A stretch of DNA of 64,000 nt, taken from assembly GCA_043228905.1 (NCBI GenBank), contig JBHGNT010000018.1:17484001-17548000 (forward strand), given 5' to 3'. The DNA comes from Azolla caroliniana. Taxonomy: Eukaryota > Plantae > Polypodiophyta. Shown here one piece after another: positions 1 through 41,532 of this stretch; the first letter of the stretch is position 1; each line of letters starts with the position of its first letter. Under the pieces are notes generated by a model. It made no database searches, was not told where the DNA came from, and saw only the letters and a list, made by a program, of their open reading frames with translations. A program made the translations under genes and the position numbers.

Positions 1-899
1 TGTGGCCTTCTAGGTAAAAGGAAAATCAACACATGTGGTGGCTGTAGAAGTTGTCGGGGTGGAGTAAACGAGACCCCTTCCATTGTTGATCTTTTGTCTT
101 GCTTAGTGTCTACTTATACAAGCCAAGGGCTCTTTCACTATGTCACCTATGGTGGGTTTTTATTCAATCTCCATCCCAAGTTTCTACGAGGAAATGGACA
201 AGAGGAGGTAAGAATACACACATCTTTATCATTCCTTTTGCCTTGTGGTGGGTGGTCGGTCCATCAAGTTTGTCAAGGATTCGTTACGAATGGCAATCTT
301 TGAAGAATGATGCATTTCATACTAACGATTTCCCAATAGACTTTGTCATATTTCGCTACCGTGCATACATTAAGAGTGTTCCATAATATTTAGCTCCCGA
401 GAAGGGTTCTATACTTTGTAGGTAGTAGTGGTGGTGTTTTTTTTCTTTCATAATAGAAGCCAAATCTATACTTTAGAGTAAGTTAGTTACGGAAAGGGGG
501 AGAGAGAAATGGAGGGGTTTTTTCTTTCATTAATACTTTAGGTTCATGCTTCTAAGTTCTTCTCCAGCTGCTTATTCTTCTTCTTCTTCTTCTTCTTCAC
601 CTCTCTCTGACGAAACCCTACAGAAACCCTACAAGGCTACCTGTAATTTGTCGAAACTGCCTCCTCTAAACCTAATCCTAAACTTAGAAAGCAGAATTCG
701 ACGCATCACAGCAAACACTCACTCATGCTACCGTTGCAGCAGATGAAACGACTTGCTACATGCAGCACAAGATGTTTCTGCTTTCGTAGGGTACATGTCC
801 GAAATGATGGGAGTCCAGCTAGAATCGATGGCGACACTGTTCAGGAAGATGGTAACGAAGCAGACGCCGTAAGGAAAGATTCATCAGGAGAAGCCTTTC

Positions 900-2100
900 T
901 CATTGAACCTTCGATGTCTTTTGTTTCTCCCTTCTTTTCAGGTCCCTGTGAATCACTCATCTTCCTATAACTTGGCATTTTTTCGATTGGATCAGAAACT
1001 ATGAGTTACACAAATTCTCCTTTTCCCTCCCTTCGTTATCTGTACAGATAGAAAGAGAACGAGAGGGGAATATCCGTTTGTGTTTTGCCACAAGTTGAAA
1101 AATTGAGTTTGGGAAATATCTTCATATTCAGGTGATATTTTTTTTTGGATTTTTGGACAAAAGGTCATTCCGATTTATCCATTCAGAGACATTTTAGGGA
1201 TTTCCATTTTGCTTTCATTGATTTTCGGATGAAATTTCTTTGGAAAAATCTATTTGATTCTTTCCTCATCCTTTTTTGTGGAGTTTTGGATGACGCATAA
1301 AAGGTAGGTTTTGTTTTTCATTGACGATTGAGGAAACTTGTTGGAGATAATTAATTATTATTTTTCTTTGGTTAATGTTCATGCCATGCTCTCAATCAAC
1401 ATTTGGACCAGCCATCCCTTTGAATTGTATTGTGGAACTCCATTTTTCTTTCATATGAAAAACTAGAGAAATTCCTGTGGGAAAAATCTCTTTTGACTTG
1501 TTTTTGAGTGTTCATGCATGCCATTATGTTTATGGAAGTTCATCCTTTCGAGACATCCAAATGGAAAGGATTCTCGTTTTACTATTCATTGTAAATTGGG
1601 ATATTAGTGTGGGTCTTCCTTTTCTGAATAATACATGGATTTTTGAAGTAGTATTGAATGCCAAGAATAGTATGTGTTATGCCTTGTGTTTTTCGTGGTT
1701 TGTATAGACCAAGAAGTTTGATATCCAAAAGGCAACAAGAAAACATTTTCTTTTTGTCTAGCATTTCTGGAGTTGAGGTAGCTTTTGTTGCTACTCCAGA
1801 AGTTTTCAGATTATTTCACCATATCGTTTATGCGTCCAATCTGTTGAACATGGAAAACCACAAGCTGCTGCTTTTGTGCTCAAAGGATTGCAAGTTCCTG
1901 GCCTGAGAGAGAGAGCGAAGGAGTCAATTGCATGTCTATATTTTATTAATGGGTTAAAGGTAGGTTATTGACCACGTTTTTGGACTTTGCTAATTTCATC
2001 TAAATGTAATTTGCAGATAAAGTGTGCTCCCGTGAATGGTTGTCATATTTGTGGTAATATGTTCCTATATGAGTGTTGCCAAATACAAAGACATATGAGT
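900..2100 (+). other. Conserved non-coding scaffold, copy 1 (putative lncRNA/long leader) leading into the Dof-derived hairpin
   Basis: Colinear homology with 10600-11040 plus 12470-12750 and with the reverse complement of 58860-60330, including a short exon-like block after tttcag (~941-1001) and the block (GA)n...catgtctatattt...aggttattgacca. No conserved ORF. Confidence 0.6.
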
Positions 2101-2689
2101 GTTGCTGGTTCCGCTCTTTCAGCGGAGAATTGAGTGGCATAAAGCACACTTTACAACCGAAGCAAGGCTGAACCACAACTGAGTCTTTGTTTTGTCGTTA
2201 AAATACAGGAACTCTACATTGACATTAGAAGCGCAGAGAGGGCATGGTGGAAATGTCCAAAGGCCTATCTTGAAGGTATCCAGAACCTTGAATTGGGTAC
2301 TGGTCATTGGTGTGGTCAGCCTCTTTTTTAACCCGCCTTCAGCATTTAGGAGGATCGCATCCAACTTTGCCTTTATCACCTCAATGATCGTCGTGCCATT
2401 TGTCTGCTGTTGCAGCTCTTGTAGAACCTTGAAGGCAGCGTTGGATGCGATCCTCTTAAATGCTGAAGGCGGGTTAAAAAAGAGGCAGAGCACAGCAATG
2501 ACGACTATCCAATTCAAGGCTCTAGACACCTTCTTCAAGATGGGCCTTCCGACATCACTACCATGCCCTCTCTACGCATCTAATGTCAATGTAGAATTCC
2601 AATAAGTGTCAGTTGGTTCAGCCCCACTTTGGGTTGCACAGTGTGTTTATGCCACTCCATTATCTGCAGAAAGAGTGGAATTAGCAACA
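2101..2689. ncRNA. Candidate long hairpin RNA locus: head-to-head inverted fragments of a Dof-like gene
   Basis: Arms ~2101-2376 and ~2431-2689 are reverse complements, with a ~54-nt loop. Both strands translate to LDAILLNAEGGLKKR...QFK.LDTF...PCPL.ASNVNVEF, homologous to the last exon at 14808-15659. Transcription is not shown. Confidence 0.7.
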
Positions 2690-2870
2690 GCAGGAGGAGC
2701 ATGTGAATAAGATGAAGAAGCTGGAGTTTACACTTCATGGAAAGGGATTGGAAGTGCTGGCTGGTGCCTATAGGAGCCTCAGTGTGGCTGCAACGTTTCT
2801 GGTCAATGCCACGAGTCATTGAAGTTCTGGAGGCGAACAGATTTATTCTGTGCAGCAGCTGTTGCATGTC
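2431..2870 (+). pseudogene. Dof-like gene fragment (right hairpin arm and its extension)
   Basis: Aligns to ~14880-15335 with a stop at 2603-2605 and a deletion inside the zinc finger. Confidence 0.85.
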
Positions 2871-4427
2871 AGCAAGAAGAAGACCACATTGCTCTAATTA
2901 AAATTACAGTGATTAGGGTTATCAGTACTCTTCAAAGAAAAAATCTTGTAACTCAGATTGCCAGTTATGGAGTTATTATTATTATTATCATTATAGGTTT
3001 CTTGGATCACACACAGTGGTGACGTGACCATTGTGAGTCCTCTCAGATATGATAGAGCTCTCCTCGGATCAAGAAAGATGGATTGTAGAACCAAATGAAG
3101 ATGGGCAACAACTCATTCATGGATACGTAATGGTGGACATGGAAGTGAAATGTCACTGTAAACCAATATATCCATAATCCAAGCATTCATGGTTAGTTCC
3201 ACAAATGGCATATGTAACAAGTGCGGTTGGAATCATTCACTATTTTAAAGACTAGATGTTAGATTTTCCTTCAGCCTTTCAATTATAAGTCACAATATCA
3301 TATTTTTGTGACAGCTTCAAAACTAGGTACTAGGTTTTAGTAGTAGAGCATATGTTATTGTTTAAACCCCTCTCAAGGGGTGGTAGAAATAAAGGACCTT
3401 TGACCTCTCCCACATGAACTTGAATCCATAATAGCATTGCACACAATTTGTGCAAGTTTGGGTTCCCAAAAATTGTTAGTTCCCTATTGGGTAACGAGGT
3501 AAATGATGGATGGCATAATAGTACCTCAAAGCACATCCCCTCCATAGAGTGTGGTCAACACCAGCCATATCAAGGAAAACATAGTTTTGTTCGTAGGACA
3601 TCAAACGAAGGATATAGGCATGTTGTCCCTAGTTCTGAAGCATATGAATGAATGTTGTGGAGGTGAATACTTTGTTGTTGGTTGACAAGTAGAAGAGAAG
3701 CAATAATCGGTTGGCCTCTCTTTGGGCATGACACAACATTTGAAGCTTTGCACTAGGGATGAAAGCACAACGCCGAACCTATAGGTGCATGGTCCTAAGC
3801 ATAGGTTTGAGATAGTACTAATCTTCGCCTCGCACTTTGTGAACTTTTTCTCTTGTTTACTTCGCTTCCTCCTAAAACTTGCCCATGAGCTAAAGTGGGA
3901 AGGATAAATTTACGTTTTCGGCAATAGCTCCCTCCCACTCACCAACATACTTAACTTATCCTTTTGGAAAAGAACATCAAGTTAGGGTCTCATGAGTTGA
4001 AGTGGTGCATAATATTTGGTTGGACATGGTCCATACTCTATTGGTTTATTACTCAATGTGTCCACTTTTTGACTTTCTTGGAAAATACTCTACTTTTGTC
4101 TTGAAAAGCTGGTCTCCCTTTTTCACATTTTTAGTTGCCAAGATGGTTGTACGCTTCGTGATAACCCATATGCATACGTCCACATCCACATCCATATCCA
4201 CACACACACACACACATCCACATACTAATACTCATGCACATACACATACGTCTATACACACATACACACACATATAACATAGAAATACACAATTAATTAT
4301 ACATGCTCATTCACAAGTATACATGAGGGTAGACATACTTCTATATAAATGTATCCACACATACTCCCTAACACACTAAAAAATACAATTACACTAATAG
4401 ACACATTTTTATGCAAACATATATATT

Positions 4428-4510
4428 GTGGTGTACGTTTTGAGCAAGCGCATGCCGTCATGTTGTGGTGTACGTTTTGAGCAAGCGCATGCCGTCATGT
4501 TGTGGTGTAC
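4428..4510. repeat. ~38-bp tandem duplication
   Basis: tgtggtgtacgttttgagcaagcgcatgccgtcatgt occurs twice; the mirror arm (~42260-42305) has a single copy. Confidence 0.85.
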
Positions 4511-5236
4511 CTTTGTTCCTTTGTGCCACCCGTTTAGCATGCATGTATCCAAACCAACCCAAATGGGTATCAACTTATCAACTATAAATTGAGTAAGAAG
4601 TAAGAAGCAAGGCAAGCTTGTTTGGATTCTCTCTATGTGCTTTTCACAATATGCACTTGTATGTGTAAATACAAAATTTATTCATTACATGCACATATTC
4701 ACTACATAGCATTGAAACCTAGTTAGTACACCATACAAGCTCACATGGCTCACATATAATCTAATGCACATATATTATCGATCTGAACCGCATTATTGGT
4801 GAAGGCACAAGCTACAAATGAATCTCTCAAACACGATGAAAGCACCTAGACATGCATCACATCACTTAAAAAAGGAGAGAGGTCATCAAATAAACCAACA
4901 AGTCTGGACATGTGGGCACGTTGGATTGCATTAGGTTGCATATTCCACGACATAGAATAGTTTTATCAACAATAACATTTGATCAATCAAAGTGTAGACT
5001 ACACAATAATAGTGCAAGTCCATGAGTTTGTATATTTGGCTACCGGATAATAGGATTGACAATGAAGATAGGATAGAAGGACCATATAATTGTTGCATAA
5101 ACCAACTTCCATCACTTCATGGATATTGATAGGCCCAAGAAACCCATCCCACTCCATGGTCACGATGAATAAATGCATAGTGTAAGTGACATATTGTATC
5201 TAGGATGAAGATTTTAAAGGAAGATTGGATCAATGT

Positions 5237-8200
5237 TGTTATAGACTAGACTGATAAAAGACTATTAAGCAAGATCAAAGAGCGATTAGATGTTAATCCA
5301 GATCCCTAATCGCATATCAATATAATCTCAAGATAGAGCTCATTGGCTATGATGAATGCCTAGTGCAGATGCACTTAATAGGTTATCTTCTATATTGTCA
5401 GACAATAAGCCCTCAAGATGCCAAAATGATTAAGATACATGAATTTATGACCCAAAAGATGATGGGATACATGCTTACTATTTACATCATTACATGCATG
5501 AGATAGGTATAACATGACTCATTACATGCATGAGTTCATAATACTCCCCCTCATCTCATCATCATTGTTTTAGCTCATCGGCTCTGATAATCTTTTGAGT
5601 CCAAGAGAAGGAATGTTCAGCCATTGTTTTGATGCAGGTAAGCTTTTGGTAAAAATATCCGCGAAGTTCTTGCTTGATGTAATAGGTTGAATGTTGATAT
5701 AATTATCATTGAGCTCACGAGTAAAGAAAAACTTGAGAGAAATATGTTTGATTCAATCACCTTTAATGAAGCCCTTCTTGAATTGATTAATGCAAGCATA
5801 ACTATCTTCATAGATAATTGTTGGTAATGGGGGCCGATAAACCGCAAGAACTTCCATTATGTCTGATTAAGCATTGTAACAATAGGCATTCTCAACTTGC
5901 TTCATGTAATGCCAATATCTCAACATGATTTGAAGGTGTTGCAGCGAATGTTTGCTTTGTTGATCTCCAAGAGATCGTTGTACCACCAACAAGGAGAACA
6001 TAACCTATTTGTGATTTGCCAACATGAGAGTCAGATAAGTACCCATTGTTAGAATAACCGGTCAATTGACTGTGCATAGAACCATTGGTAAAGAAAAGAC
6101 CCATATCTTCAGTGCCTTGTAAATATTAGAAAATCAGCTTAATTCCAGTCTAGTGTCACTTGGTAGGATCGTGACTATACTGAGCCAGCAAATTGACAAC
6201 GAATGAAATGTCCGGACGCGTACAATTAGCCAAGTACATAAGTGCGCCAACAACAACCATTTAAGGGTACTGTGGTCCAAATGCTGACTCGTCAAAAGAT
6301 CTTGGCTAAAATGGGTTACGAGAAGGGTCCAAAGAGCAAACTACCATAGGAGTTCTAGTAGAATGAGCTTGATCAATAGAAAACCGTTTTAATATTTTAT
6401 GGATATAAGAGATCTTATAAGCAAAATGTGGTTAAACCGAGGTCTTTCATTTCAAATTGTTGTACTTCATCCAAATGTTGTACTTCTGGCTTCGGGGTAT
6501 AGGCTTCAGTGGTCAACTTTGACAGTGTAGGAAGCGTCAAAGCCTTGTGTATCGAATTCCCGTTGAAAACACAAGGTTTTCTACTAAACAAACGAACATG
6601 GATATCGATAAAAAAAAGCTAATAAATTGCACCTATGTGGGCAATTTTAGGGTTTATCAACCTAATTATTGCCTATAGTTAAATAATTGGTTTCTTTATC
6701 ATGCTACTACTAAAATATTTATTCTATTTTAGTGAACCTCGCCAAAAAGTCCCCGCCTTCAATCTTAAGATCATGTCTCCTGCGAAAAGGGGTTATGATG
6801 GCTATCAACAAAGCAAATCCCATAGGCTATTTTTCGAGTTTGGTTTACGTCGAGGAAGATGGAGTATTATTCCTAATATTTGCAAAGTCCGAAGGAAAGG
6901 GAAAAATGGATTTAGTCAAGAGCTTCACATACGGTAGACTTCGGAATGTTGAGTACGAAGATAATGACTCACCTAATCTCGTCCTTGATGTAGAAAGCTT
7001 GAATGGGACTAGACGGGTACTCATTGATGAAGGCAACCTGGTGGCTGAGTGTCAAAAACCAAAAAGACTAATCAACCACCTAATTGAGTTGTTTTCAAAC
7101 CCAAATGATTGGGTTTTAGATTTGTTTTCCGGCACAGGTATATAATATAAAACTTGTCGCATCAATTTAGATTAATGTATAGTCTATTCTTTAGTTTGAT
7201 GTTACATGTGCAATTTCATTCTACTGTCAGGTACTACTACAACATGCACCTTAAAGATGTTCAAGAACTCTGTTGCATTGGAGAAGGACCCTTGATAATG
7301 TTAATTTCATCAAAATGAGGATCCAAGGTATCCTAGGACTGTCCAGATCAAGACCAAGATGTTGGGGCAAAGAATATCAATGAAACTAAGATGTTCCAGA
7401 TGACTTCTAGAGAACCTATGGAACCTGTAGTTGAAGAAGCAGGGGACCTTGTTGAATTAGAAGACGTGTTAGAGTTTGAACACACTAATGATTCTATTGA
7501 GCGTACCGACGAAGCCAATGAGGACAATCTTGATGAAGGAGCTAATGCGGAAGAGCCGGCTTTACCAAACCTATTATTGGATTGAATGCATATGGCTTAT
7601 TGTAAAATTTGAACAATATGAATTGTTAAATTTTGATGTAATATATAAGTTGAGCTTATTTATAATTTTCGTGTAACATGCATTGAACTTAGAGATTAAG
7701 TATAATTTGTATGTGTACTTGTTGTTTGAAGTCTCCTTTATTATTTGGGGTTTATATGAGATAAAATTATACTCTATCATTTGCTCGTATGATTGGAATA
7801 CTATTGTAGACTGGTTTATTTCTACATTGACGGTGTCATGTATCACGTGTCAAGGGAATTTTTCTCTCAACATAGTAGTATCTCTTAATTGTCATGTTCA
7901 CAATTTGCTTTTTAAGAAATATTTTATATAAATATACACACATAATTAAAAGAAGTCACTTATTCAGTGGGGTATGCTTTTTAGAATATGCACAATGACA
8001 TGTGTTACTATTATACTTGCGTTGACATCTATACCTTATCTAAGTTTTGGACAAAAACATGGTAGATAGAATATACGTCAGATGATTTTGTTGTCGTGAT
8101 ATTAGTTAGTTCTATTTTTCGCTATGTTTTCATAAACCACATACGCATGCATCGTGCCTTTTTGAAATTCTGCTTAAATAGGGCATTTTTTAACATCTCA

Positions 8201-9451
8201 CTAAGATATGAAAAAGAGAATGTGACATATTACCTATTTCAAATGACCCGGTGTTTACCATATTAGCCTTCGATTTCCTATCTTGACCTTGCTTGCCATA
8301 CTTCTGATAAAGATCAACATGAAACTTAGAAGTTTGGCAAGTATTTGCCTAATACCCTCGTAGACCACATCAAAGACATGAATTGGATGAAGCATTATCT
8401 TGACTTGACTTTGATTGATGGTACATTAGCTTGACTTGATTACTTTTGGGATATTGATTCCTATTGTTCGTCTTCCTCGAATTTGTGCATATGGGTGTTG
8501 ATGACGATGTTGTCGTCTAGAATAATTAATCTCGACATGCGTCAAATCCTTAAATTGTAGAGGAGCCACAAGTTGGCTAATTGGATGAAGTTTATTATTC
8601 TTGAGGAACACTTGGTGGTGTTTCTTAGCGACAAGAAGTTCAGATAAAAGTTCAACATAGGTTTTAAAACCACGATTACGATATTGTTCGGAAAGATTAA
8701 AATTTGAGGGATGAAAACTAGTTAACGTTTTGTTGATTAGATTTGCCTCTTGAACAAGGTTGTCATGACCACAAAATTTAAGTTTAGAAACGATACCAAA
8801 TAGTGAGGAATTATATTCAACAACTGACTTGAAATCTTGAAAATGAAGTTGATTCCATTCATGTAAAGTGTTGGGGCGGAGAACAGTTCATTGATGATCA
8901 AAGCGGTCAAGTTTGATTTGCTTTCGGAGAGTTGATGGATTCTTGATGGAGAAGTATTGATTCTGAAGGCTTAGATCAAGGTGATGAAGGATCAAGATGA
9001 ATGCTTCCGCTCCCTTCTTCCTAGCATTTTAGTTCTCAACATCATTAAAATTATCACTTACGTTATGAAGGAGATCTTTCGTCGTGAGATGGCCTTCAAC
9101 ATGAACCATCCAAGTCATATAATTGGACCCATCGAACGCAAATGGCGAGAATAAGCATTTCTCTATTTGAAGAGCTTGAGAAGCTATACTAATGGTAACA
9201 ATAAGGTAGATTTGTCTAAGAGAATAATTAATTGCAATGGTAGACGTTGATCGTGCTAATAACGTGTTATAGAATAGACTGATTATAGACTATTACGCAA
9301 GATCAAAGAGCGATTAGATATTAATCCAGATCACTAATCGCATATCAATATAATTTCAAGATATAAGCTCATAGGCTGCATACTATTGACATCACGACTA
9401 AGATAGGTATAAGTTTATAACATAAATCATTACATGCATGAGTTCATAACA
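5237..9451 (-). mobile_element. Degenerate Ty1/copia LTR retrotransposon (Bianca-like) with internal foreign insert
   Basis: LTRs 5237-5543 and 9265-9451; PPT (ctccccctc on +) at 5544; PBS-like cgttattagcacga next to the 5' LTR; TSD aatgt/aatgc. Gag remnant FDGSNYMTW; RT FEMKDLG near 6430-6460; RNaseH SQIGYV...ISWRSTKQT...SNHVEILALHEAS. Confidence 0.92.
6733..7585 (+). pseudogene. Prokaryote-type amino (N4-C/N6-A) DNA methyltransferase, C-terminal half, decayed; intron 7138-7230
   Basis: Spliced translation ...ECQKPKRLINHLIELFSNPNDWVLDLFSGT/GTTTTCTLKMFKNSVALEKDP** matches the beta-class N6_N4_Mtase signature (QKP..L...LI...S..GD.VLD.F.G.GTT...E.D). GT-AG phase-1 intron; stops after EKDP; acidic tail to 7585. 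No DPPY/SPPY motif seen. Confidence 0.82.
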
Positions 9452-9569
9452 AATGCAATAAATCAATATGCTAACATGATTCCACTCCTCCTCATTGATA
9501 GCCCGATGTGATCTAACCATCTCTCAAAACAAACTTGGAGAATGACACAATGTGTGAATTTACTAGTAT

Positions 9570-9800
9570 GTTAGGCCATGGCCATATTCCCATCCATGGA
9601 CATTCCTTTATGTCCGTGAATGAAACTCGCGGCATGTGGGCATCAACCCATGCATGACCATCGTGTTTATGCTAGCTAATGCATGGCCATGATATCTCAT
9701 GCATGGCATGGAATCCCATCAACCCACGCATGACCATCATGTTCCATGCATGCGTGACCATGATATCTCATGCATGCCATGTAATCCCATCATCTCATCT
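9570..9800 (+). promoter_or_regulatory. RY-motif (CATGCA/CATGCATG)-rich cluster upstream of scaffold copy 2
   Basis: Many CATGCA(TG) words in short degenerate repeats. Paralogous clusters at 22630-22760, 23940-24075, 24645-24730, 36920-37130, 61410-61500, 61750-61900 and 62150-62270. Confidence 0.45.
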
Positions 9801-10039
9801 CTAGTTAATATGTAATTACACAAACAAAACACAATTCATAATTTGATTCCACTTCATTTATTTATTCATTTAATGACTTGAACGTACGAAAAGCCTGCGC
9901 AAGAAGAAGAAGAAGAAGCTCATCATCTTCTTTCTGCTTCTCCCATTTAGAAACAGCTTTTCTCCATCTCCATCTCCATCTCTGGCTGGTTTCACATACA
10001 TATATTATCACAGTCATCTTGTCATGAATATCTTTTCAG

Positions 10040-12644
10040 TCTCAAGCATTGATTGCTTCCACTCTCAAGCATAAAAAATGTGTACATGAGCCATGACACA
10101 CATAAAAACAAGCTTGCCTTCACCACTTGACTTACGCCTGCAGAGAACGTCTTCAGTCTAAATGCTAGTATTACCCCCTTCCTAAAACAAAGCATTGCCA
10201 AGGCACATGATGGCTTCCGTTGAGAAGAAAGCCACAATCACATTCCCATCAACGAAGCCCAAGAATGCACAGAAATCAAATCTATATAATGCTTTTGCTG
10301 ATATCAAATCGAATGCTGTAGGTAAATCGGGGTGATTTATCGTTCATTGGATAATGTAGGCGGGATGGTTTACACTTTGATGGTACAATGAATGGACAAA
10401 AACTCAGTTTTTGCGTTTATAAAGCTTTTTGTCAAGTGGCATGTGTATGATATGGTATGCACTATTTCAGGTGGTATGAGTATTGATCAACTCAATGTAA
10501 TAATATGCTTGTTTGTTAGCTACTTTAGTAATTAGGCTTCTAAACACACAATGCAAGGGAAACCCCAACAAAAACCCTAAATTCTTGGTCTGTCTTGTTT
10601 TCTCTCATTGAACCATTGATGTTTTTGTGAATCCTTTCTCTTTTCAGGTTCCTTTGCTGTACTCATCTTCTTACAACATCGCTTTCCTTGGCTTGGATCA
10701 AAATCTGTAAGTTAAAAATAAATTCTACTTTCCTCTCTCTAGTCTTTCTGTCTCGGTAAAAAGTTGGAGATAGTGTAGAGAGATTTGAAGAAAAGAAGTA
10801 AACAGGGAAAGAAAGAGAATGAGACGGCCACTTGTCCTAATTCTCATTTAATCATGTTTTTGTCAATGTTGGTGCCATGCTTCCATTGACATTTGGATCA
10901 TTCCCCCCCCCCCCTTTGAATCGTATTATGGAACTCCAATTTTTCTCCCATATCAAAAACTAGGGAAATTTTTGCGGGGAAATATCTCTTTTGGCTTGTT
11001 TCTTAGTGTCATGCCATTCTGTTTATGGATCTGATTTCTTGCGAGGAAACAGATGCCAGAAGGATAAGCATATTGTGGAACCTAATTACTGTTGCCACGG
11101 AAGATGATTTCCTTGAGGTACCATCTTATGTATCACCTCCACTATTTAGTGTCCCATAAATTAAGATGTTAGGAGGATCTCTATTAATCACTAACACAAT
11201 GATTGTATTCAATTCTATAGAATGCTCAAACCATTATAGCCATTCCACACTATATGATAAAGTGGCATGTCTCTACCGTTTTAGCATGGAGAGGCTCGTC
11301 GCTAAAGGAATTGGCAAGGTTCCTGAGGTTAAACAGCTCGACATGGACAAGGCAAAGCTAATGTATGTGCTACTTTTCTGATTAAAATGGGGATTTTTGA
11401 AGTTCCATCAAAGGCAAACATTATGTTACCTGGCATTTGTAGAACTAAGCATGAATGCTTGGATTATGGATATATTGGCGAATGATCGAAGGGAGAGAGT
11501 CTCTGTCATATCTGTGAGGACTTACAATGGTGACTTCACCACTGAGTGTGTGATCCAAGAAACCTATAATGATAATAATAGTAATAACTCCACAACTGGC
11601 AATCTGCGTTATATGATTTTTTCTTGTGGAGTACCGAAAACCCTAATAACTATAATTATAATCAGAGCAATGTGACCTTCTTCTTGTTGAAAGTGTTCTC
11701 TGATCTGCACTTGGTCATTCTAGGTAAGAAGAAGACAAAGCAATGAACGTATGATTCGAGTTGACTTGATATTGGCGTACATTGTAAAAAGGCATGATCC
11801 ACTAAATTCTTTAAACACATCGGAAGTACTCAGGAACCTGTTTTGCATAACTAGAAAAGAATGGCACAGAACAACATCTCCTCGGCTTTTGCATCAACAG
11901 CTTTACAAAGCCATTCAATCTTTGTAGCAGTGTCTCCAACCCTTGCACATGAGATAATGAAATGAATGAGAACAAGAGCAGCAAATTACAAGAACAAGAA
12001 TCCCCACCCTTCGAGGTGAAGAATGCATATGATCACCAGAAGTCGAGACAGTTGATTCGATGCGACTGTACCCCTCTGAGCTGAAAGTTAGGGTTTTCCG
12101 AGTTCAAATTGATTTAGATGCAACCAAAGAATAAAGGCATTAGAGCAATAACAGTTGTCCATGTAAAGGTGCCTAACCTCAGAAACCTTGCCTATTCCTT
12201 TAGCGACAAGACTGTCCATGCTAAGATACTAGGAACATGCCATTTTACCATATAACGTGGAAGGGATTCTATGGGATTCAATAGAATCATTGGTTTCATT
12301 TAGATAATTGGTTAATTACATCAAGATTTGGAGAGATCCACCTAACAGCTTATAAAGACACTAAACTGCAGGTTATAAGGTGATACTACAAGGAGATCAT
12401 TTTCCGTGGCAACATCAGGCTCATCAGAAACTCAGGGAAATGTGTCCTGGCATCCTTATATGTCTTCATTCTTCCTAGAACGCTCAGCAGATCTGAAGTG
12501 TGTCCTTTCTGCATAACATTTATGAAAAACGAGTGACTATGATTGTAAACGTCAATGTTAATACGTAACTCAAATGACTATCTTCTTTGTTGCATTTAAA
12601 ATTTGTCCTACTCAGAAAACCCTAACCTTCAAGCATTTGTACGC

Positions 12645-12680
<36 letters not shown>

Positions 12681-12750
12681 ATGGTGTAAATCACATGTCT
12701 ATATTTCGTTAAGGATTTAGAAGGAGGTTATTGACCATCTCTGCTGGTAA
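10040..12750 (+). other. Conserved non-coding scaffold, copy 2, upstream of Dof-like gene 1
   Basis: Homologous to 900-2100 and to the reverse complement of 58860-60900. Contains an exon-like block tttcag|gttcc...aatct|gtaagt at ~10648-10706. Confidence 0.6.
11091..12413. repeat. Imperfect inverted repeat, arms 11091-11331 and 12174-12413, ~840-nt spacer
   Basis: gttgccacggaagatgatttccttg...gtcgctaaaggaattggcaaggttcctgaggtta pairs with taacctcagaaaccttgcctattcctttagcgac...caaggagatcattttccgtggcaac. Confidence 0.85.
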
Positions 12751-13476
12751 TACTTGGGTACATTCTGTTTGTCCTCCTGTTTGGTTTAGGTTGTGAGATC
12801 ATGTCTTTACCGTATGTCTATTGAATATGTCTATTGCGTGAAACCCCTTTAATAATTGATGGAAAAGAGTGACCTGACTGTTTGAATGATTAGTGAAATA
12901 GAACAATATTAGAATCTACATTAAGCGATTATTAATTGATTAAATGTGACAAGTTCTGGTATTTGTATACATCCTGCATGGATGAATGAGATGTAAGAAA
13001 ACGAGAAAGAGAATGTTCTACTAAAAAAAAGAGAAAAAAAATGGAAAATAAGAAAACGAGTGCATCCCAGCCGTTGATAAAACAAAACATTTCTAGAAAA
13101 ATAAAAGGACGGCATCCAGCCCATCGGAGCCGTGCGCCGTCGGATGGACGTCAGGATCCGACAACCCACGATTGCGTACACAAAACGCGAAACTGTCTTC
13201 TGCCCTTTTTCCGACAGAAGAACAGTAGAGACAAAGCATTTCGAACACAGACAGAAAGAGAAAGAAGAGAGCCTTTGAACACCATCGCCACCCATTCATC
13301 GAGACGGCCTGAACAGCAGTTGCCTTGCAGAGTAAGGAGGAACCCACATTCTTAATATATGGAAATGACAAAATTACCTGCAGAATCGTATCAGACTTGT
13401 CAATCGTATACTAGTTAGTAGGGTAGGACATTACCTGCAGAATCGTATCTGATCAATTGTCGATCGTTCTAATAGG

Positions 13477-15659
13477 ATGGCTCCTGCTGGCGTAGACAGA
13501 GATACCCAAATCATTCCTAATGATGAATTCGCAGGATTACTATTACATGAGACGGAAGTGGAAGACTTCCAACAGTTGGTGCTTCAATTGCTCCACCAAA
13601 CAGAAGATGATGAATCAATCAGGGTTGACTCCTTGGAACTTCCCGTCACATCAACGTCCCACGACAATGTGGACATATATGCAGATGAGCTGGAGCAATT
13701 CCTGCTCCTGCACCAGGAAAATCAAGAGATACCTGAAGCTCTGACATCCGCAGGTCCATTAGGAGCTTCCAATATCAATAAATGTGTGCGAATAAAAATA
13801 GTAAACATGTTTCTGAAATGTTTATGCACGATACAGCTGCAGCGGGTTCCACAGAATCTCCCGTCACATCTGTCTGCATAATTGAAGACAGTCGTGAAGA
13901 TCCACCAGCTCTGAGATCAGCAGGTGAATTAGGAAACTCCTGCTTTCCCATTCTGTTAATATATGCAGAGACCCAATACCTAAATCATTTTCTAACTTAT
14001 ATCATGACGTTGCAGCTGGGCAAATCAATATGGGCAAATGACTAAATCATTTTCTAACTTGTATATAGATTATGAAGCTGGAGCTGGTTCTACAGGGCCT
14101 CCTATCACATCAATTTCAGATATGTATGCAGGGGATCTGGAGGAGCAATTATTACGCCTTCTTGAGGAAGACCAAGAAATAATCGAAGGGATTCCTGAAT
14201 ATCCTTCCCCAGCGACATCAGCAGGTGAATTAATAGCTTCTGCTCATAACTGCAATGTCAATATAATGCATCGATAAATTGAGTACATAACTTTCTAACT
14301 TATATTAGATCGTAAAGCTGCAGCTGGTTCTATAGAGGCTCCCATCAGACCATTTGCTGACAATTATGTAGAGGAGGTAGGGCTTAATGAAGATCATGAA
14401 AGAATTGAATGGAATTTTGAATATCCTCCAGCTCAGACATCAGAAGGTGAATTTGTAGTTTCTGGGCATAAGTACAATCTCAGTCAATATGGGCAAATGA
14501 CTAAATAATCTTCTAACTATTATATAGATCATGATGCTGCAGTTGGTTCTACAGAGCCACCCATCACATCATTTTCGGATATATATGCAGAGGATCTGGA
14601 GCAGCAATTACTGCTCCTACTTGATGAAGACCATGAAATAATGGAAAGGGGTCCGGAATATCCTCAGGCAGTAGCGACATCAGCAGGTGAATTAGTAGCT
14701 TCTGCTCATAACTACAATGTGAATAGGGAGTGCATTGGTAAATTGACTCCATAACCTTCTAACTTATAATAGATCGTAACGCTGCAGTTGGTTCTACAAA
14801 AGCTCCCATGAATAATGCTCAAGATGATTTTCTACTTGAAGAGCTGCAGCAGCAGACAAATGGCACAACCATGATTGAGGTGATGAAGGCAGAGTTGGCT
14901 GCGATCCTGCTAAATGCCGAAGGCGGGTTGAAGAAGAGGCTGAGCGCACCAATGACGACTACCCAATTCAAGGTGTTGGACGCCTTTTTCAAGATTGGTC
15001 TGCCTACATTACCATTATGCCCTCATTGCAAGACGAATGTCCACGTAGAATTCCGATATTTTAACAACCGAACGAAGACTCGGTTGGTTCAGCCTCGCTT
15101 CGGCTGCAAGGTGTGCTTTGCACCACCCCATTCTCCGGAGAAAGAATGGAACCAGCAAAAGCAGGAGGAGAATGTGAATAATAGGAAGAAGCTCGAGTTT
15201 ACTCTTCACCAAGAGGAATTGGAAGTGCTGGTTGGTGCCTGGGGAGGGCTTCACGCGCTGGTGCAACGTTTCTGGTCGATGCCACATGTCATCGAAGTTC
15301 TGGAGGCCAACAAATTTATTCTGTGTAGCAGCCGCCGCCGCAAGTCTGAGAGTCCAACCAATTCATCGCCAAAGAGGAAGAGGAGATCGTGGGAGTCGAA
15401 GCAGGTCAATGATGGTGGTAGTACTGCTGAGAACATGATTGATCATCAGATGCCTCCTATTAGAGATCATCATGATGAGGATATGTTGTGGATGGAATCT
15501 TTTAATTCCATCATCGCAGCAGAGAGGCTAGGTAGTAGTTCTGCTGCCTATAGCCCTAGAAATACTAATCCTAACAATAATGATAGTGATTGGTATCATG
15601 ATTACTATATGAGTTGCAGCAACCTGAACAATAACAACATTGCTGCTTTCACTTGGTAA
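13477..15659 (+). CDS. Divergent Dof-like zinc-finger protein with acidic exon-repeat N-terminus, paralogue 1 (~567 aa, 6 exons)
   Basis: Predicted exons 13477-13753, 13837-13923, 14069-14224, 14309-14446, 14528-14686 and 14773-15659 have GT-AG introns, all phase 1, and join into a 1704-nt open frame. Motif CPHC-x25-CKVC with F.YFNN and QPR; basic PKRKRR. Alternative in-frame acceptors are possible. Confidence 0.82.
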
Positions 15660-32765: not shown

Positions 32766-34039
32766 GTGATCCAAAGTTATGAACCCTTTTTGAAAGCTTT
32801 CTAGTCTAGTTGAATTGCAACCATTTCTCCTTGTATCACGATATACATTCCTCATAATACTAGTTGTTATCATTTGGCATCGCTTTATGCAATGACTTGA
32901 ACAATCCTTGTGTAACTTGGCCTATAGGGGTGCAAAAGGATCCAAGTCTAGAATGTTATTATATACTCCACAACTATACAAATCAATTGTCTCCCATGTA
33001 AATAAGTACTTGTTATACATTTCCAACAACCCTGAGAATTGTGTTGGTGCACAAGAGACAACTTACATGTAAGTGAAACAGGAAAAGATAGCCATGTGGT
33101 TTAGTGATTTGGTTGAGTTTATTTTCTTAAGTGTATTGTTAAGTATATTGGGTAGCTTCATTTGATTCTAAACTAAGTTCTTTATGAGAGTTTTAGAGTT
33201 AGATTAATGAATGGTTTGTTGGCCATGATTAACATCCCATTGGTGGCTAGCAATAGGGTAGATGCAAAATTAAAACCCCAAATGATGATCTTGGTGTGAG
33301 AAGAACCCCACTAATTGAGGAATGTGTTGGAAAAATCTTACACACATTGGCCAATCCAGTATTCTTTTTATCATATATATATATCCCTTGGGGATCCATC
33401 CTACACCTCAAAAGTAGGGACTCTCTCTCTATGTATTCACTGTTCGAAATGCTTTGTCTCTACTGTTCTTCTGTCGGAAAAAGGGCAGAAGACAGTTTCG
33501 CGTTTTGTGTACGCAATCGTGGGTTGTCGGATCCTGACGTCCATCCGACGGCGCACGGCTCCGATGGGCTGGATGCCGTCCTTTTATTTTTCTTGAAATG
33601 TTTTGTTTTATCAACGGCTGGGATGCACTCGTTTTCTTATTTTCCATTTTTTTTCTCTTTTTTTTAGTAGAACATTCTCTTTCTCGTTTTCTTACATCTC
33701 ATTCATCCATGCAGGATGTATACAAATACCAGAACTTGTCAAACCCCCTAATCATCCACATTTAATCAATTAATCATCGCTTAATGTAGATTCTAATATT
33801 GTTCTATTTCACTAATCATTCAAACAGTCAAGTCACTCTTTTCCATCAATTATTAAAGGGGTTTCACGCAATAGACATATTCAATAGACATGATCGTGGA
33901 AGACATACGGTAAAGACATGATCTCACAACCTAAACCAAACAGGAGGACAAACAGAATGTACCCAAGTATTACCAGCAGAGATGGTCAATAACCTCCTTC
34001 TAAATCCTTAACGAAATATAGACATGTGATTTACACCAT

Positions 34040-34075
<36 letters not shown>

Positions 34076-34306
34076 GCGTACAAATGCTTGAAGGTTAGGG
34101 TTTTCTGAGTAGGACAGATTTTAAATGCAACAAAGAAGATAGTCATTTGAGTTACGTATTAACATTGACGTTTACAATCATAGTCACTCGTTTTTCATAA
34201 ATGTTATGCAGAAAGGACACACTTCAGATCTGCTGAGCGTTCTAGGAAGAATGAAGACATATAAGGATGCCAGGACACATTTCCCTGAGTTTCTGATGAG
34301 CCTGAT

Positions 34307-35629
34307 GTTGCCACGGAAAATGATCTCCTTGTAGTATCACCTTATAACCTGCAGTTTAGTGTCTTTATAAGCTGTTAGGTGGATCTCTCCAAATCTTGAT
34401 GTAATTAACCAATTATCTAAATGAAACCAATGATTCTATTGAATCCCATAGAATCCCTTCCACGTTATATGGTAAAATGGCATGTTCCTAGTATCTTAGG
34501 ATGGACAGTCTTGTGGCTAAAGGAATAGGCAAGGTTTCTGAGGTTAGGCACCTTTACATGGACAACTATTATTGCTCTAATGCCTTTATTCTTTGGTTGC
34601 ATCTAAATCAATTTGAACTCGGAAAACCCTAACTTTCAGCTCAGAGGGGTACAGTCGCATCGAATCAACTGTCTCGACTTCTGGTGATCATATGCATTCT
34701 TCACCTCGAAGGGTGGGGATTCTTGTTCTTGTAATTTGCTGCTCTTGTTCTCATTCATTTCATTATCTCATGTGCAAGGGTTGGAGACACTGCTACAAAG
34801 ATTGAATGGCTTTGTAAAGCTGTTGATGCAAAAGCCGAGGAGATGTTGTTCTGTGCCATTCTTTTCTAGTTATGCAAAACAGGTTCCTGAGTACTTCCGA
34901 TGTGTTTAAAGAATTTAGTGGATCATGCCTTTTTACAATGTACGCCAATATCAATTCAACTCGAATCATACGTTCATTGCTTTGTCTTCTTCTTACCTAG
35001 AATGACCAAGTGCAGATCAGAGAACACTTTCAACAAGAAGAAGGTCACATTGCTCTGATTATAATTATAGTTATTAGGGTTTTCGGTACTCCACAAGAAA
35101 AAATCATATAACGCAGATTGCCAGTTGTGGAGTTATTACTATTATTATCATTATAGGTTTCTTGGATCACACACTCAGTGGTGAAGTCACCATTGTAAGT
35201 CCTCACAGATATGACAGAGACTCTCTCCCTTCGATCATTCGCCAATATATCCATAATCCAAGCATTCATGCTTAGTTCTACAAATGCCAGGTAACATAAT
35301 GTTTGCCTTTGATGGAACTTCAAAAATCCCCATTTTAATCAGAAAAGTAGCACATACATTAGCTTTGCCTTGTCCATGTCGAACTGTTTAACCTCAGGAA
35401 CCTTGCCAATTCCTTTAGCGACGAGCCTCTCCATGCTAAAACGGTAGAGACATGCCACTTTATCATATAGTGTGGAATGGCTATAATGGTTTGAGCATTC
35501 TATAGAATTGAATACAATCATTGTGTTAGTGATTAATAGAGATCCTCCTAACATCTTAATTTATGGGACACTAAATAGTGGAGGTGATACATAAGATGGT
35601 ACCTCAAGGAAATCATCTTCCGTGGCAAC
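34307..35629. repeat. Mirror copy of the imperfect inverted repeat (arms 34307-34546 and 35389-35629)
   Basis: Reverse complement of 11091-12413. Confidence 0.85.
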
Positions 35630-37237: not shown

Positions 37238-40200
37238 TGTTATGAACTCATGCATGTAATGAGTTATGTTATAAACTTATACCTATCTTAGTCGTGATGT
37301 CAATAGTATGCATGCATCCCATCACCTGGTGGGTTATAAACTCATGTGTCTTAATCATTTTGGCATTCTATAGAAGAGCAAGAAGAGCATAGCCTATGAG
37401 CTTATATCTTGAAATTATATTGATATGCGATTAGTGATCTGGATTAATATCTAATCGCTCTTTGATCTTGCGTAATAGTCTATAATCAGTCTATTCTATA
37501 ACACGTTATTAGCACGATCAACGTCTACCATTGCAATTAATTATTCTCTTAGACAAATCTACCTTATTGTTACCATTAGTATAGCTTCTCAAGCTCTTCA
37601 AATAGAGAAATGCTTATTCCCGCCATTTGCGTTCGATGGGTCCAATTATATGACTTGGATGGTTCATGTTGAAGGCCATCTCACGACGAAAGATCTCCTT
37701 CATAAGGTAAGTGATAATTTTAATGATGTTGAGAACTGAAATGCTAGGAAGAAGGGAGCGGAAGCATTCATCTTGATCCTTCATCACCTTGATCTAAGCC
37801 TTCAGAATCAATACTTCTCCATCAAGAATCCATCAACTCTCCGAAAGCAAATCAAACTTGACCGCTTTGATCATCAATGAACTGTTCTCCGCCCCAACAC
37901 TTTACATGAATGGAATCAACTTCATTTTCAAGATTTCAAGTCAGTTGTTGAATATAATTCCTCACTATTTGGTATCGTTTCTAAACTTAAATTTTGTGGT
38001 CATGACAACCTTGTTCAAGAGGCAAATCTAATCAACAAAACGTTAACTAGTTTTCATCCCTCAAATTTTAATCTTTCCGAACAATATCGTAATCGTGGTT
38101 TTAAAACCTATGTTGAACTTTTATCTGAACTTCTTGTCGCTAAGAAACACCACCAAGTGTTCCTCAAGAATAATAAACTTCATCCAATTAGCCAACTTGT
38201 GGCTCCTCTACAATTTAAGGATTTGACGCATGTCGAGATTAATTATTCTAGACGACAACATCGTCATCAACACCCATATGCACAAATTCGAGGAAGACGA
38301 ACAATAGGAATCAATATCCCAAAAGTAATCAAGTCAAGCTAATGTACCATCAATCAAAGTCAAGTCAAGATAATGCTTCATCCAATTCATGTCTTTGATG
38401 TGGTCTACGAGGGTATTAGGCAAATACTTGCCAAACTTCTAAGTTTCATGTTGATCTTTATCAGAAGTATGGCAAGCAAGGTCAAGATAGGAAATCGAAG
38501 GCTAATATGGTAAACACCGGGTCATTTGAAATAGGTAATATGTCACATTCTCTTTTTCATATCTTAGTGAGATGTTAAAAAATGCCCTATTTAAGCAGAA
38601 TTTCAAAAAGGCACGATGCATGCATATGTGGTTTATGAAAACATAGCGAAAAATAGAACTAACTAATATCACGACAACAAAATCATCCGACGTATATTCT
38701 ATCTACCATGTTTTTGTCCAAAACTTAGATAAGGTATAGATGTCAACGCAAGTATAATAGTAACACATGTCATTGTGCATATTCTAAAAAGCATACCCCA
38801 CTGAATAAGTGACTTCTTTTAATTATGTGTGTATATTTATATAAAATATTTCTTAAAAAGCAAATTGTGAACCTGACAATTAAGAGATACTACTATGTTG
38901 AGAGAAAAATTCCCTTGACACGTGATACATGACACCGTCAATGTAGAAATAAACTAGTCTACAATAGCATTCCAATCATATGAGCAAATGATAGAGTATA
39001 ATTTTATCTCATATAAACCGCAAATAATAAAGGAGACTTCAAACAACAAGTACACATACAAATTATACTTAATCTCTAAGTTCAATGCATGTTACACGAA
39101 AATTATAAATAAGCTCAACTTATATATTACATCAAAATTTAACAATTCATATTGTTCAAATTTTACAATAAGCCATATGCATTCAATCCAATAATAGGTT
39201 TGGTAAAGCCGGCTCTTCCGCATTAGCTCCTTCATCAAGATTGTCCTCATTGGCTTCGTCGGTACGCTCAATAGAATCATTAGTGTGTTCAAACTCTAAC
39301 ACGTCTTCTAATTCAACAAGGTCCCCTGCTTCTTCAACTATAGGTTCCATAGGTTCTCTAGAAGTCATCTGGAACATCTTAGTTTCATTGATATTCTTTG
39401 CCCCAACATCTTGGTCTTGATCTGGACAGTCCTAGGATACCTTGGATCCTCATTTTGATGAAATTAACATTATCAAGGGTCCTTCTCCAATGCAACAGAG
39501 TTCCTGAACATCTTTAAGGTGCATGTTGTAGTAGTACCTAACAGTAGAATGAAATTGCACATGTAACATCAAACTAAAGAATAGATTATACATTAATCTA
39601 AATTGATGCGACAAGTTTTATATTATATACCTGTGCCGGAAAACAAATCTAAAACCCAATCATTTGGGTTTGAAAACAACTGAATTAGGTGGTTGATTAG
39701 TCTTTTTGGTTTTTGACACTCAGCCACCAGGTTGCCTTCATCAATGAGTACCCGTCTAGTCCCATTCAAGCTTTCTACATCAAGGATGAGATTAGGTGAG
39801 TCATTATCTTCGTACTCAACATTCCGAAGTCTACCGTATGTGAAGCTCTTGACTAAATCCATTTTTTCCTTTCCTTCGGACTTTGCAAATATTAGGAATA
39901 ATACTCCATCTTCCTCGACGTAAACCAAACTCGAAAAACAGCCTATGGGATTTGCTTTGTTGATAGCCATCATAACCCCTTTTCGCAGGAGACATGATCT
40001 TAAGATTGAAGGCGGGGACTTTTTGGCGAGGTTCACTAAAATAGAATAAATATTTTAGTAGTAGCATGATAAAGAAACCAATTATTTAACTATAGGCAAT
40101 AATTAGGTTGATAAACCCTAAAATTGCCCACATAGGTGCAATTTATTAGCTTTTTTTTATCGATATCCATGTTCGTTTGTTTAGTAGAAAACCTTGTGTT

Positions 40201-41532
40201 TTCAACGGGAATTCGATACACAAGGCTTTGACGCTTCCTACACTGTCAAAGTTGACCATTGAAGCCTATACCCCGAAGCCAGAAGTACAACATTTGGATG
40301 AAGTACAACAATTTGAAATGAAAGACCTCGGTTTAACCACATTTTGCTTATAAGATCTCTTATATCCATAAAATATTAAAACGGTTTTCTATTGATCAAG
40401 CTCATTCTACTAGAACTCCTATGGTAGTTTGCTCTTTGGACCCTTCTCGTAACCCATTTTAGCCAAGATCTTTTGACGAGTCAGCATTTGGACCACAGTA
40501 CCCTTAAATGGTTGTTGTTGGCGCACTTATGTACTTGGCTAATTGTACGCATCCGGACATTTCATTCGTTGTCAATTTGCTGGCTCAGTATAGTCACGAT
40601 CCTACCAAGTGACACTAGACTAGAATTAAGCTGATTTTCCAATATTTACGAGGCACTGAAGATATGGGTCTTTTCTTTACCAATGGTTCTATGCACGGTC
40701 AATTGACCGGTTATTCTAACAATGGGTTCTTATCTAACTCTCATGTTGGCAAATCACAAATAGGTTATGTTTTCCTTGTTGGTGGTACAACGATCTCTTG
40801 GAGATCAACAAAGCAAACATTCGCTGCAACATCGTCAAATCATGTTGAGATATTGGCATTACATGAAGCAAGTTGAGAATGCCTATTGTTACAATGCTTA
40901 ATCAGGCATAATGGAAGTTCTTGCGGTTTTATCGGCCCCCATTACCAACAATTATCTATGAAGATAGTTATGCTTGCATTAATCAATTCAAGAAGGGCTT
41001 CATTAAAGGTGATTGAATCAAACATATTTCTCTCAAGTTTTTCTTTACTCGTGAGCTCAATGATAATTATATCAACATTCAACCTATTACATCAAGCAAG
41101 AACTTCGCGGATATTTTTACCAAAAGCTTACCTGCATCAAAACAATGGCTGAACATTCCTTCTCTTGGACTCAAAAGATTATCAGAGCCGATGAGCTAAA
41201 ACAATGATGATGAGATGAGGGGGAGTATTATGAACTCATGCATGTAATGAGTCATGTTATACCTATCTCATGCATGTAATGATGTAAATAGTAAGCATGT
41301 ATCCCAGCATCTTTTGGGTCATAAATTCATGTATCTTAATCATTTTGGCATCTTGAGGGCTTATTGTCTGACAATATAGAAGATAACCTATTAAGTGCAT
41401 CTGCACTAGGCATTCATCATAGCCAATGAGCTCTATCTTGAGATTATATTGATATGCGATTAGTGATCTGGATTAACATCTAATCGCTCTTTGATCTTGC
41501 TTAATAGTCTTTTATCAGTCTAGTTTATAACA
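37238..41532 (+). mobile_element. Mirror copy of the Bianca-like copia element
   Basis: LTRs 37238-37503 and 41226-41532, PBS-like cgttattagcacga at 37504, PPT gagggggag before 41226, RNaseH ORF 40664-40876. Confidence 0.92.
39183..40035 (-). pseudogene. Mirror copy of the N4-C/N6-A DNA methyltransferase pseudogene
   Basis: ECQKPKRLINHLIQLFSNPNDWVLDLFSGTG, with the same intron and stops as 6733-7585. Confidence 0.82.

What the first reader, a model, noticed from the sequence alone, without database searches (positions are those of the whole stretch)
6733..7585. Intron-containing bacterial-type N4-C/N6-A DNA methyltransferase inside a copia element
Seen: motif X (QKP..LI), motif I (VLDLFSGTGTT, split by a GT-AG intron) and motif II (ALEKD), in the C-terminal arrangement typical of beta-class amino-methyltransferases, followed by an acidic tail. 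The stops after EKDP (tga taa tgt taa) are what C-to-T decay of cga caa tgt caa would give. Established: this family is mostly prokaryotic (restriction-modification, CcrM-like); eukaryotic N4-cytosine methyltransferases of bacterial origin are known from bdelloid rotifers and Marchantia. Inference: an intact, domesticated or TE-borne parent gene probably exists elsewhere in this genome, implying possible 4mC/6mA activity.
Basis: partly seen in the sequence, partly recalled or inferred. Interest (0 to 1): 0.78.

Follow-up and report, generated by a model that had tools for sequence, protein, structure and literature searches.

The report
Dead Sola1 transposon with ParB-methyltransferase remnant
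This is a broken 1.8-kb remnant of a multi-copy plant cut-and-paste transposon that landed inside a copia retrotransposon; intact relatives carry a conserved bacterial-type DNA methyltransferase fused to a predicted ParB-like domain, which likely marks adenines in the element's own DNA, a gene pairing already published for a brown alga.

Summary
The methyltransferase piece is real (Pfam PF01555, E 1.6e-8; motif I split by a 93-bp GT-AG intron), but it is neither copia cargo nor a host gene. Bases 6463-8255 are the wreck of a Sola1-type DNA transposon of about 7.6 kb, inserted into the copia behind its gag zinc knuckle. What remains: 84 bp of transposase, half a palindrome, an N-terminal domain joined by a 2.26-kb deletion to the last third of the methyltransferase, and the right terminal inverted repeat. 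The ParB-like domain and catalytic motif IV are gone. The stops after EKDP are off-frame products of a 1-bp insertion, not C-to-T decay. Relatives in 80 public loci carry the whole gene head-to-head with a DDD transposase (10 of 10 loci long enough), keep DIPY in 43 of 43, show dN/dS near 0.05, and hold GATGC-N3-GCATC palindromes. DIPY and the nearest solved structures favour 6mA over the 4mC of Marchantia and rotifer enzymes. The layout is published for Ectocarpus Sola1-1_Ec32 (PMC12477816); I found no land-plant description in 8 searches. This scan has noted the same family many times on other DNA. Activity is untested.

The parts
6463..8255 (.). Remnant (1.8 kb) of a Sola1-type DNA transposon of about 7.6 kb; left end lost
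   Evidence: Pieces map in order onto L005, L001, L011, L008 at 70-82% identity; L005 runs 180-7773 between 37-bp inverted repeats
6463..6546 (-). 84-bp piece of the transposase gene, fused to the copia RT
   Evidence: 80% identity to L005 1623-1706; tblastn E 9e-10 with the L005 transposase
6547..6566 (.). Right half of the element's internal palindrome; a deletion of about 1.9 kb ends at the palindrome centre
   Evidence: Aligns to L005 from 3649, the centre of the 3629-3669 palindrome, and to L011 from 565
6733..7051 (+). Start of the long exon of the ParB-methyltransferase gene: N-terminal domain, with a 107-nt frameshifting deletion near 6842-6852
   Evidence: Matches P0001-P0023 and P0062-P0068; 107 nt missing against L011 and L080
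7051..7052 (+). Junction of a deletion of about 2.26 kb that removed the ParB-like domain and methyltransferase motif IV
   Evidence: L001 1053 to 3316; an exact contig of run X3 spans it (6933-7207)
7052..7137 (+). Methyltransferase motif X to motif I (QKP..LI, VLDLFSGT)
   Evidence: PF01555 E 6.8e-8
7138..7230 (+). 93-bp GT-AG intron, phase 1, inside motif I
   Evidence: same donor position in 36 of 40 relatives
7231..7585 (+). Last exon: end of motif I, motif II (ALEKD), acidic tail; broken by extra bases at 7293 and 7332-7333 and a nonsense codon at 7334-7336
   Evidence: Alignment to L001
8219..8255 (.). Right terminal inverted repeat (ends GGTGTT)
   Evidence: 95% to the left end of L005; 43, 42 and 63 listed contigs in runs X1, X3, X9 leave the window sequence at 8255-8257 with unlike flanks
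5598..6460 (-). Host copia: decayed RT C-terminus and RNase H
   Evidence: Translation; motifs recalled, no Pfam hit
8256..9240 (-). Host copia: decayed gag with zinc knuckle; the transposon sits directly behind it
   Evidence: Retrotran_gag_2 E 0.0038, DUF4219 E 0.017; contigs that continue the copia without the insert (X3 1, X9 4)
5351..5416 (+). Second, 66-bp transposase piece lodged in the copia's left LTR-like stretch
   Evidence: tblastn 82% over 22 aa, E 2e-6; a contig skips exactly 5352-5417
38513..40305 (-). Duplicate of the whole remnant (coordinates approximate) within an inverted duplication 2647-13247 / 33441-44082
   Evidence: 97-99% identity, same lesions

Best explanation
The stretch is a dead, repeatedly deleted copy of a Sola1-type DNA transposon inserted into a copia element, and intact members of its family carry a ParB-like plus beta-class amino-methyltransferase gene that likely binds palindromes inside the element and likely writes N6-methyladenine on the element's own DNA. 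Shown: element anatomy, nesting, lesions, head-to-head transposase in relatives, conserved catalytic motifs, purifying selection, palindrome arrays. Predicted: ParB/Srx fold of the middle domain. Inferred: order of events (insertion behind the gag zinc knuckle, then deletion of the transposon's left end together with the copia's middle, then the inverted duplication), palindrome binding, adenine as the target, and a benefit to the transposon such as escape from 5mC silencing or control of the divergent promoter.
For: Nesting: a terminal repeat with dozens of unlike flanks at 8255-8257 and copia contigs without the insert; exact contigs span the junctions. Carrier: 10 of 10 loci with 3 kb or more upstream hold an opposite-strand transposase, DUF7869 E about 1e-52, with conserved D, D, D positions; its TIR resembles that of Cibotium Sola1 cluster_4009. 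Enzyme: DIPY 43 of 43, DLFSGT 38 of 40, median dN/dS 0.038-0.055 in three methyltransferase exons and 0.042 in the ParB block. The nearest solved structures of the Ginkgo relative are RsrI, MboIIA and CcrM. ParB: all 9 Foldseek hits at E<=0.001 are ParB or Noc; VIA Z 9.5, rmsd 3.0, 100 residues to PadC. Palindromes: GATGC-N3-GCATC 73 times in 27 of 80 loci; other spacers 0-1; shuffles 0-2. Precedent: PMC12477816.
Against: No methylation, binding or expression data. No RNA holder was listed, and the one guessed-RNA contig on the gene keeps intron-sized spacing. DIPY departs from canonical DPPY and the motif IV exon profile finds CcrM only at E 1.8. The ParB block reads GGSHSAEARR where ParB CTPases have an arginine patch (recalled), so clamp-like loading is not assured. 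14 of 56 covered ParB blocks have in-frame stops. dN/dS rests on 11-26 non-independent pairs, and collapsed repeat contigs favour intact-looking genes. No target-site duplication was found at the two-ended loci examined. Intact genes come from other, unnamed organisms' assemblies.
Confidence: 0.6

Rival explanations
1. Same transposon and gene, but the enzyme writes N4-methylcytosine, as rotifer N4CMT and Marchantia DN4MT1 do.
For: PF01555 covers both marks; the Ectocarpus paper leaves both open; motif IV does not fix specificity absolutely (recalled).
Against: N4CMT has SPPY and DN4MT1 TSPPY; this family has DIPY/DIPH; the named top PDB hits are adenine enzymes.
Confidence: 0.12
2. The fusion protein is kept for binding rather than catalysis: it grips the palindromes and regulates or shields the element, and methyl transfer is weak or absent.
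For: Non-canonical DIPY; DIRS-borne MTase domains were judged inactive (PMC4738411).
Against: The D of motif IV and the SAM-binding FSGTG are nearly invariant and under strong purifying selection.
Confidence: 0.15
3. The methyltransferase is cargo of the copia family and was spread by retrotransposition, its introns kept because it lies antisense.
For: It lies between gag and RT on the opposite strand.
Against: It ends in a DNA-transposon TIR and has transposase pieces; other copia contigs lack the insert; summed contig depth over 6540-6847 is 307-489 in X1, near the 210-248 of exact junction contigs and below the 1,450-2,400 over the copia RT (depth is a rough hint only).
Confidence: 0.03
4. 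The parent is a domesticated single-copy host gene giving the plant genome-wide 4mC or 6mA.
For: Spliceosomal introns; annotated gene models in Ginkgo (5) and Ceratopteris (1); low dN/dS.
Against: Every relative with enough flank sits beside a transposase (10 of 10); the five Ginkgo models are near-identical, partial copies. Purifying selection is expected of a useful transposon gene too.
Confidence: 0.1

Closest known systems
Sola1-1_Ec32 of Ectocarpus (PMC12477816; passages and supplementary table rows seen, figures not)
   Same: Sola1 transposon with an opposite-strand gene for a ParB-like domain plus a 4mC/6mA methyltransferase; termini AACCG-CGGTT against AACAC-GTGTT here; self-modification proposed there.
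   Different: Brown alga, 21.5 kb, 1104 aa; here a land-plant family of 6-8.6 kb with an extra N-terminal domain. Sequence homology to the Ectocarpus protein was not tested.
Plavaka elements of Bostrychia with PAG2/PAG3 (bioRxiv 10.1101/2025.02.11.637652; section 8 read)
   Same: DNA transposon with a putative N6-adenine methylase, a ParB-like protein and tandem inverted-repeat arrays beside the ParB gene.
   Different: EnSpm/CACTA-type transposase; ParB is fused to a 2OG oxygenase and the methylase to a SET domain, in separate genes.
Fern Sola1 cluster_4009 of Cibotium barometz (PMC12973397, Table S2 row; sequence cell cut) and Physcomitrella Sola1 (PMC9033089, Table 1)
   Same: TIR begins AACACC and contains CATTTGAAA as here; Sola1 is known from ferns and moss.
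   Different: The row lists only the Sola1 domain; 'methylase', '6mA' and '4mC' do not occur in that paper's main text.
Beta-class N6-adenine methyltransferases M.RsrI, M.MboIIA, CcrM
   Same: Motif order IV...X-I-II; best PDB sequence hits, E 2e-6 to 5e-6.
   Different: Stand-alone prokaryotic enzymes with DPPY (seen for RsrI); no introns, no ParB fusion.
Rotifer N4CMT (PMC8885841; passages) and Marchantia DN4MT1 (bioRxiv 10.1101/2021.02.12.428880; passages)
   Same: Eukaryotic PF01555-type beta-class enzymes of bacterial origin.
   Different: Host genes with SPPY/TSPPY that write 4mC; this family is transposon-borne with DIPY. No tree was built against them.
DAM-carrying DIRS and LTR retrotransposons (bioRxiv 10.64898/2026.05.21.726589; abstract, outline and term search)
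   Same: Transposons carrying prokaryotic-type adenine methyltransferases, with raised 6mA on the elements.
   Different: Retrotransposons; 'Sola' and 'ParB' do not occur in that text. The copia here is only the landing site.

Membership tests
Beta-class N4C/N6A DNA methyltransferase (PF01555) | PF01555 score above the curated cut-off | tested here: met
   35.2 bits against 26.7 for the window piece; 65.7 for Ginkgo P0045
Beta-class N4C/N6A DNA methyltransferase (PF01555) | Catalytic motif IV upstream of motifs X-I-II, in the window copy | tested here: not met
   Removed by the 2.26-kb deletion; the copy is a fragment
Beta-class N4C/N6A DNA methyltransferase (PF01555) | Motif IV upstream of X-I-II, in intact relatives | tested here: met
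   DIPY in 43 of 43 covered loci, upstream of DLFSGT
Beta-class N4C/N6A DNA methyltransferase (PF01555) | SAM-dependent methylation of DNA | not testable with these tools
   Needs an assay or long-read kinetics
Eukaryotic 4mC enzymes (N4CMT, DN4MT1) | SPPY catalytic motif | tested here: not met
   DIPY/DIPH against SPPY/TSPPY
Sola1 DNA transposons | DDD-type transposase | tested here: met
   IDGMD, QLDN and GHTHDHID invariant in 3 of 3 aligned relatives, DUF7869; assignment of this pattern to Sola is recalled; no Sola1 reference protein was aligned
Sola1 DNA transposons | Terminal inverted repeats | tested here: met
   Terminal repeats in L005, L025, L041, L065, 4 of 17 long loci examined; similar to Cibotium Sola1; right TIR in the window
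Sola1 DNA transposons | 4-bp target-site duplication | tested here: inconclusive
   Window copy lacks its left end; flanks of L005 and L065 do not match, L041 matches only if the ends are drawn two bases shorter, L025 has no left flank; contigs may be joined across copies
ParB/Srx-fold proteins | ParB N-terminal fold | tested here: met
   On a predicted model of a relative (mean pLDDT 72.6); Atlas ParB_N cluster at 0.92, family on 35% of members. No Pfam or PDB sequence hit. Deleted in the window
ParB/Srx-fold proteins | Binding to palindromic parS-like sites, CTP dependence | not testable with these tools
   Palindromes shown, binding not
Copia-borne gene | Insert shared by independent copia copies | tested here: not met
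   Copia contigs without the insert and low junction depth

The most novel reading that the evidence does not exclude
Land-plant Sola1 transposons run a bacterial parS/ParB-like self-recognition system: the fusion protein loads at GATGC-N3-GCATC arrays between the two genes and writes 6mA across its own element, giving ferns and gymnosperms a genuine, enzyme-made, transposon-specific adenine mark that counters 5mC silencing.
Probability: 0.3. Interest if true: 0.78.

Novelty: new member of a known kind. Interest (0 to 1): 0.36.

Why it matters
This copy is dead and tells little by itself. The family matters: land plants are reported to have few N6-adenine methyltransferases (PMC4738411, passage), and self-modifying transposon proteins are known mainly from VANDAL (as stated in the Bostrychia preprint). 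A conserved, multi-copy ParB-methyltransferase on fern-type and Ginkgo elements, with a defined candidate binding site, makes the self-marking idea proposed for algae directly testable in plants with existing long-read data and in Ceratopteris.

Tried and rejected
No whole genome is held, so intact copies in this genome were not counted. Word-indexed search of the window peptide among longer proteins: none. Ginkgo query in metagenome contigs: none; alignment query in viral contigs: none of 70 candidates. No RNA holder listed; this is no evidence on expression. The one X12 contig on the gene keeps intron-sized spacing. Sequence profiles did not find ParB in Pfam, PHROGs or PDB; the gp41 rows are chance matches on an acidic linker. 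Atlas gave nothing for the N-terminal domain. Target-site duplication not resolved. A deletion-size tally across loci returned nothing, so the 2.26-kb figure rests on L001 and similar gaps. No tree against DN4MT1 or N4CMT: no tool returned those sequences. The original Sola paper is not held; Iyer et al. 2011, cited by the Ectocarpus paper for similar algal proteins, was not read. Rejected: C-to-T origin of the stops, copia cargo, one continuous methyltransferase ORF, assembly artefact (exact contigs span the 6462, 6546, 7051 and 8255 junctions; these runs may include the assembly's source).

Full report
Observation. The + strand frame 6714-7142 ends in QKPKRLINHLIELFSNPNDWVLDLFSGT and hits Pfam PF01555 at E 1.6e-8, above the curated cut-off. 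A 93-bp GT-AG intron (7138-7230, phase 1) splits motif I, and the next exon reads GTTTTCTLKMFKNSVALEKDP. An acidic tail ends at 7585. Copia remains lie on the minus strand on both sides. The whole region recurs at 97-99% identity in an inverted duplication (2647-13247 against 44082-33441) with the same lesions. No genome is held for this window.

The frame is a chimera. An HMMER search of 1.84 billion representatives gave 54 hits. Most match only the first 100 residues and continue into a different sequence; a second group matches only the last 40. Full-length relatives carry both parts in one gene: Ginkgo Gb_37443 and four further Ginkgo models, Ceratopteris KP509_1Z236600 and unnamed assemblies. 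The order is N-terminal domain, acidic linker, ParB-like block, helical part, methyltransferase, acidic tail.

The carrier. An alignment of these proteins found 133 confirmed loci in metagenome contigs, of which the best 80 were kept. Window 6836-7051 and 7052-7636 map to places about 2.26 kb apart in L001, so the ParB-like block and motif IV are deleted. Window 8219-8255 matches both ends of L005, a 7,594-bp unit with 37-bp terminal inverted repeats. L005 holds an 897-codon opposite-strand frame with DUF7869 (E 1.7e-52) and conserved acidic residues in a DDD pattern. All 10 loci with 3 kb or more upstream of the gene hold this transposase head-to-head. The TIR resembles that of the fern Sola1 cluster_4009, listed with a 4-bp duplication in PMC12973397 Table S2. 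Window 6463-6546 is a transposase piece fused to the copia RT, and it joins at 6547 to the centre of the element's internal palindrome.

Nesting. In three runs of contigs, 43, 42 and 63 listed contigs leave the window sequence at 8255-8257 with unlike flanks (agreement 0.38-0.52; the table was cut, and both ends of an element can count), while 1 contig in X3 and 4 in X9 continue the copia without the insert. Exact contigs span the junctions. Summed depth in X1 is 307-489 over 6540-6847, about 1,450-2,400 over the copia RT and 10,000-41,000 over 7156-8387; the tool warns that this is no copy number, so it is a hint only. The simplest history, inferred: a Sola1 element inserted behind the copia's gag zinc knuckle, deletions removed its left end with the copia's middle and two internal stretches, and the region was then duplicated.

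The stops. Against L001 the window has one extra base at 7293 and one at 7332-7333; contigs lacking these bases occur in X1, X3 and X9. Of 35 relatives, 0 have CGA CAA after EKD-x and all 35 have TGG where the window has TAG. A 107-nt deletion near 6842-6852 shifts the frame earlier still. The copy cannot encode an enzyme.

The family looks functional. Of 30 loci that cover all five blocks, 28 have no in-frame stop in them. Motif IV is DIPY in 43 of 43 covered loci and motif I DLFSGT in 38 of 40. Median pairwise dN/dS is 0.038 (motif IV exon, 14 pairs), 0.055 (26 pairs), 0.053 (17 pairs), 0.042 (ParB block, 11 pairs) and 0.151 (N-terminal domain, 24 pairs). Blocks under 90% covered, blocks with stops (1, 1, 3, 14 and 8 respectively), near-duplicates and pairs with dS outside 0.1-1.5 were dropped; pairs are not independent, and collapsed contigs favour intact genes. 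A model of the long exon of L005 (37-row alignment, mean pLDDT 72.6, pTM 0.57) has ParB or Noc as all 9 Foldseek hits at E<=0.001, with low whole-chain TM-scores, and PadC at Z 9.5, rmsd 3.0 over 100 residues. GATGC-N3-GCATC occurs 73 times in 27 of 80 loci, mostly upstream of the long exon, against 0-1 for other spacers and 0-2 in 20 shuffles. The nearest solved structures of the Ginkgo protein are RsrI, MboIIA and CcrM, whereas the 4mC enzymes of rotifers and Marchantia have SPPY and TSPPY.

Mechanism. Most likely the transposon expresses a fusion protein whose ParB-like part recognises the palindrome array between the two divergent genes and whose catalytic part methylates adenines in the element, to the element's benefit. 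Binding, the base modified and the benefit are inferred, none shown. Rivals: 4mC, a binding-only role, copia cargo and a domesticated gene, in the fields above.

Known or new. PMC12477816 describes Ectocarpus Sola1-1_Ec32 with an opposite-strand gene for a ParB-like domain plus a 4mC/6mA methyltransferase and proposes self-modification (passage; table row). The Bostrychia preprint describes Plavaka elements with a methylase, a ParB fusion and inverted-repeat arrays (section 8). Eight searches found no description of the land-plant family, but the library lacks most subscription papers, bioRxiv supplements are closed, and Iyer et al. 2011 was not read. Earlier notes of this scan report the same family: 217 notes in this genome fit 'methyltransferase' and 233 findings in at least 8 genomes hold the words Sola1, ParB, methyltransferase and Ectocarpus; 16 were shown. 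They gave me the Sola, palindrome and Cibotium leads, which I tested. The host was not identified; a fern or other seed-free plant is likely from the named relatives and those notes.

Verdict. Real feature, dead copy, new member of a known kind. Interest 0.36, carried by the family rather than by this locus.

Noticed in passing
window 5351-5416: A 66-bp transposase piece sits in the copia's left LTR-like stretch, in the opposite orientation to the piece at 6463-6546; it looks like filler DNA copied during break repair.
   Followed up: partly
window 6546-6547: One deletion ends at the exact centre of the element's palindrome, which suggests breakage at a hairpin.
   Followed up: partly
window 6843-7051; L005 3997-4330: The gene's N-terminal domain has no Pfam match; its model resembles PH-like folds weakly (Z 4-4.8), below the level that the tool calls reliable.
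   Followed up: partly
L005 510-1100 (- strand), L025, L037: The transposase ends in a conserved beta-rich domain (GMLVA...PFWIAKI...VHWY) that recalls Tudor/PWWP/BAH chromatin readers (recalled, not tested).
   Followed up: no
L025 3690-3990, L040 6450-6810: Some subfamilies use the variant palindrome GATAC-N3-GTATC; both forms together give 151 sites in 41 of 80 loci, spaced about 51 bp apart in L052 and L040.
   Followed up: partly
L029 3279-4440, L008 3963-4052, L045 4033-5955: Copies of this family are nested in one another, and L029 holds another internally deleted copy.
   Followed up: no
window 14763-15659 (+) and 50645-51535 (-); fragments at 2100-2860: Two 297-298 codon frames with a divergent Dof-like zinc finger (E 3.9e-5, below cut-off), preceded by tandem acidic repeats, in an 87% inverted duplication.
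   Followed up: no
window 1-64000: The window is built of nested inverted duplications of different ages (2647-13247/33441-44082 at 97-98%; 21065-22976/61922-63833 at 98%; 12997-16228/50063-53919 at 79-87%).
   Followed up: no
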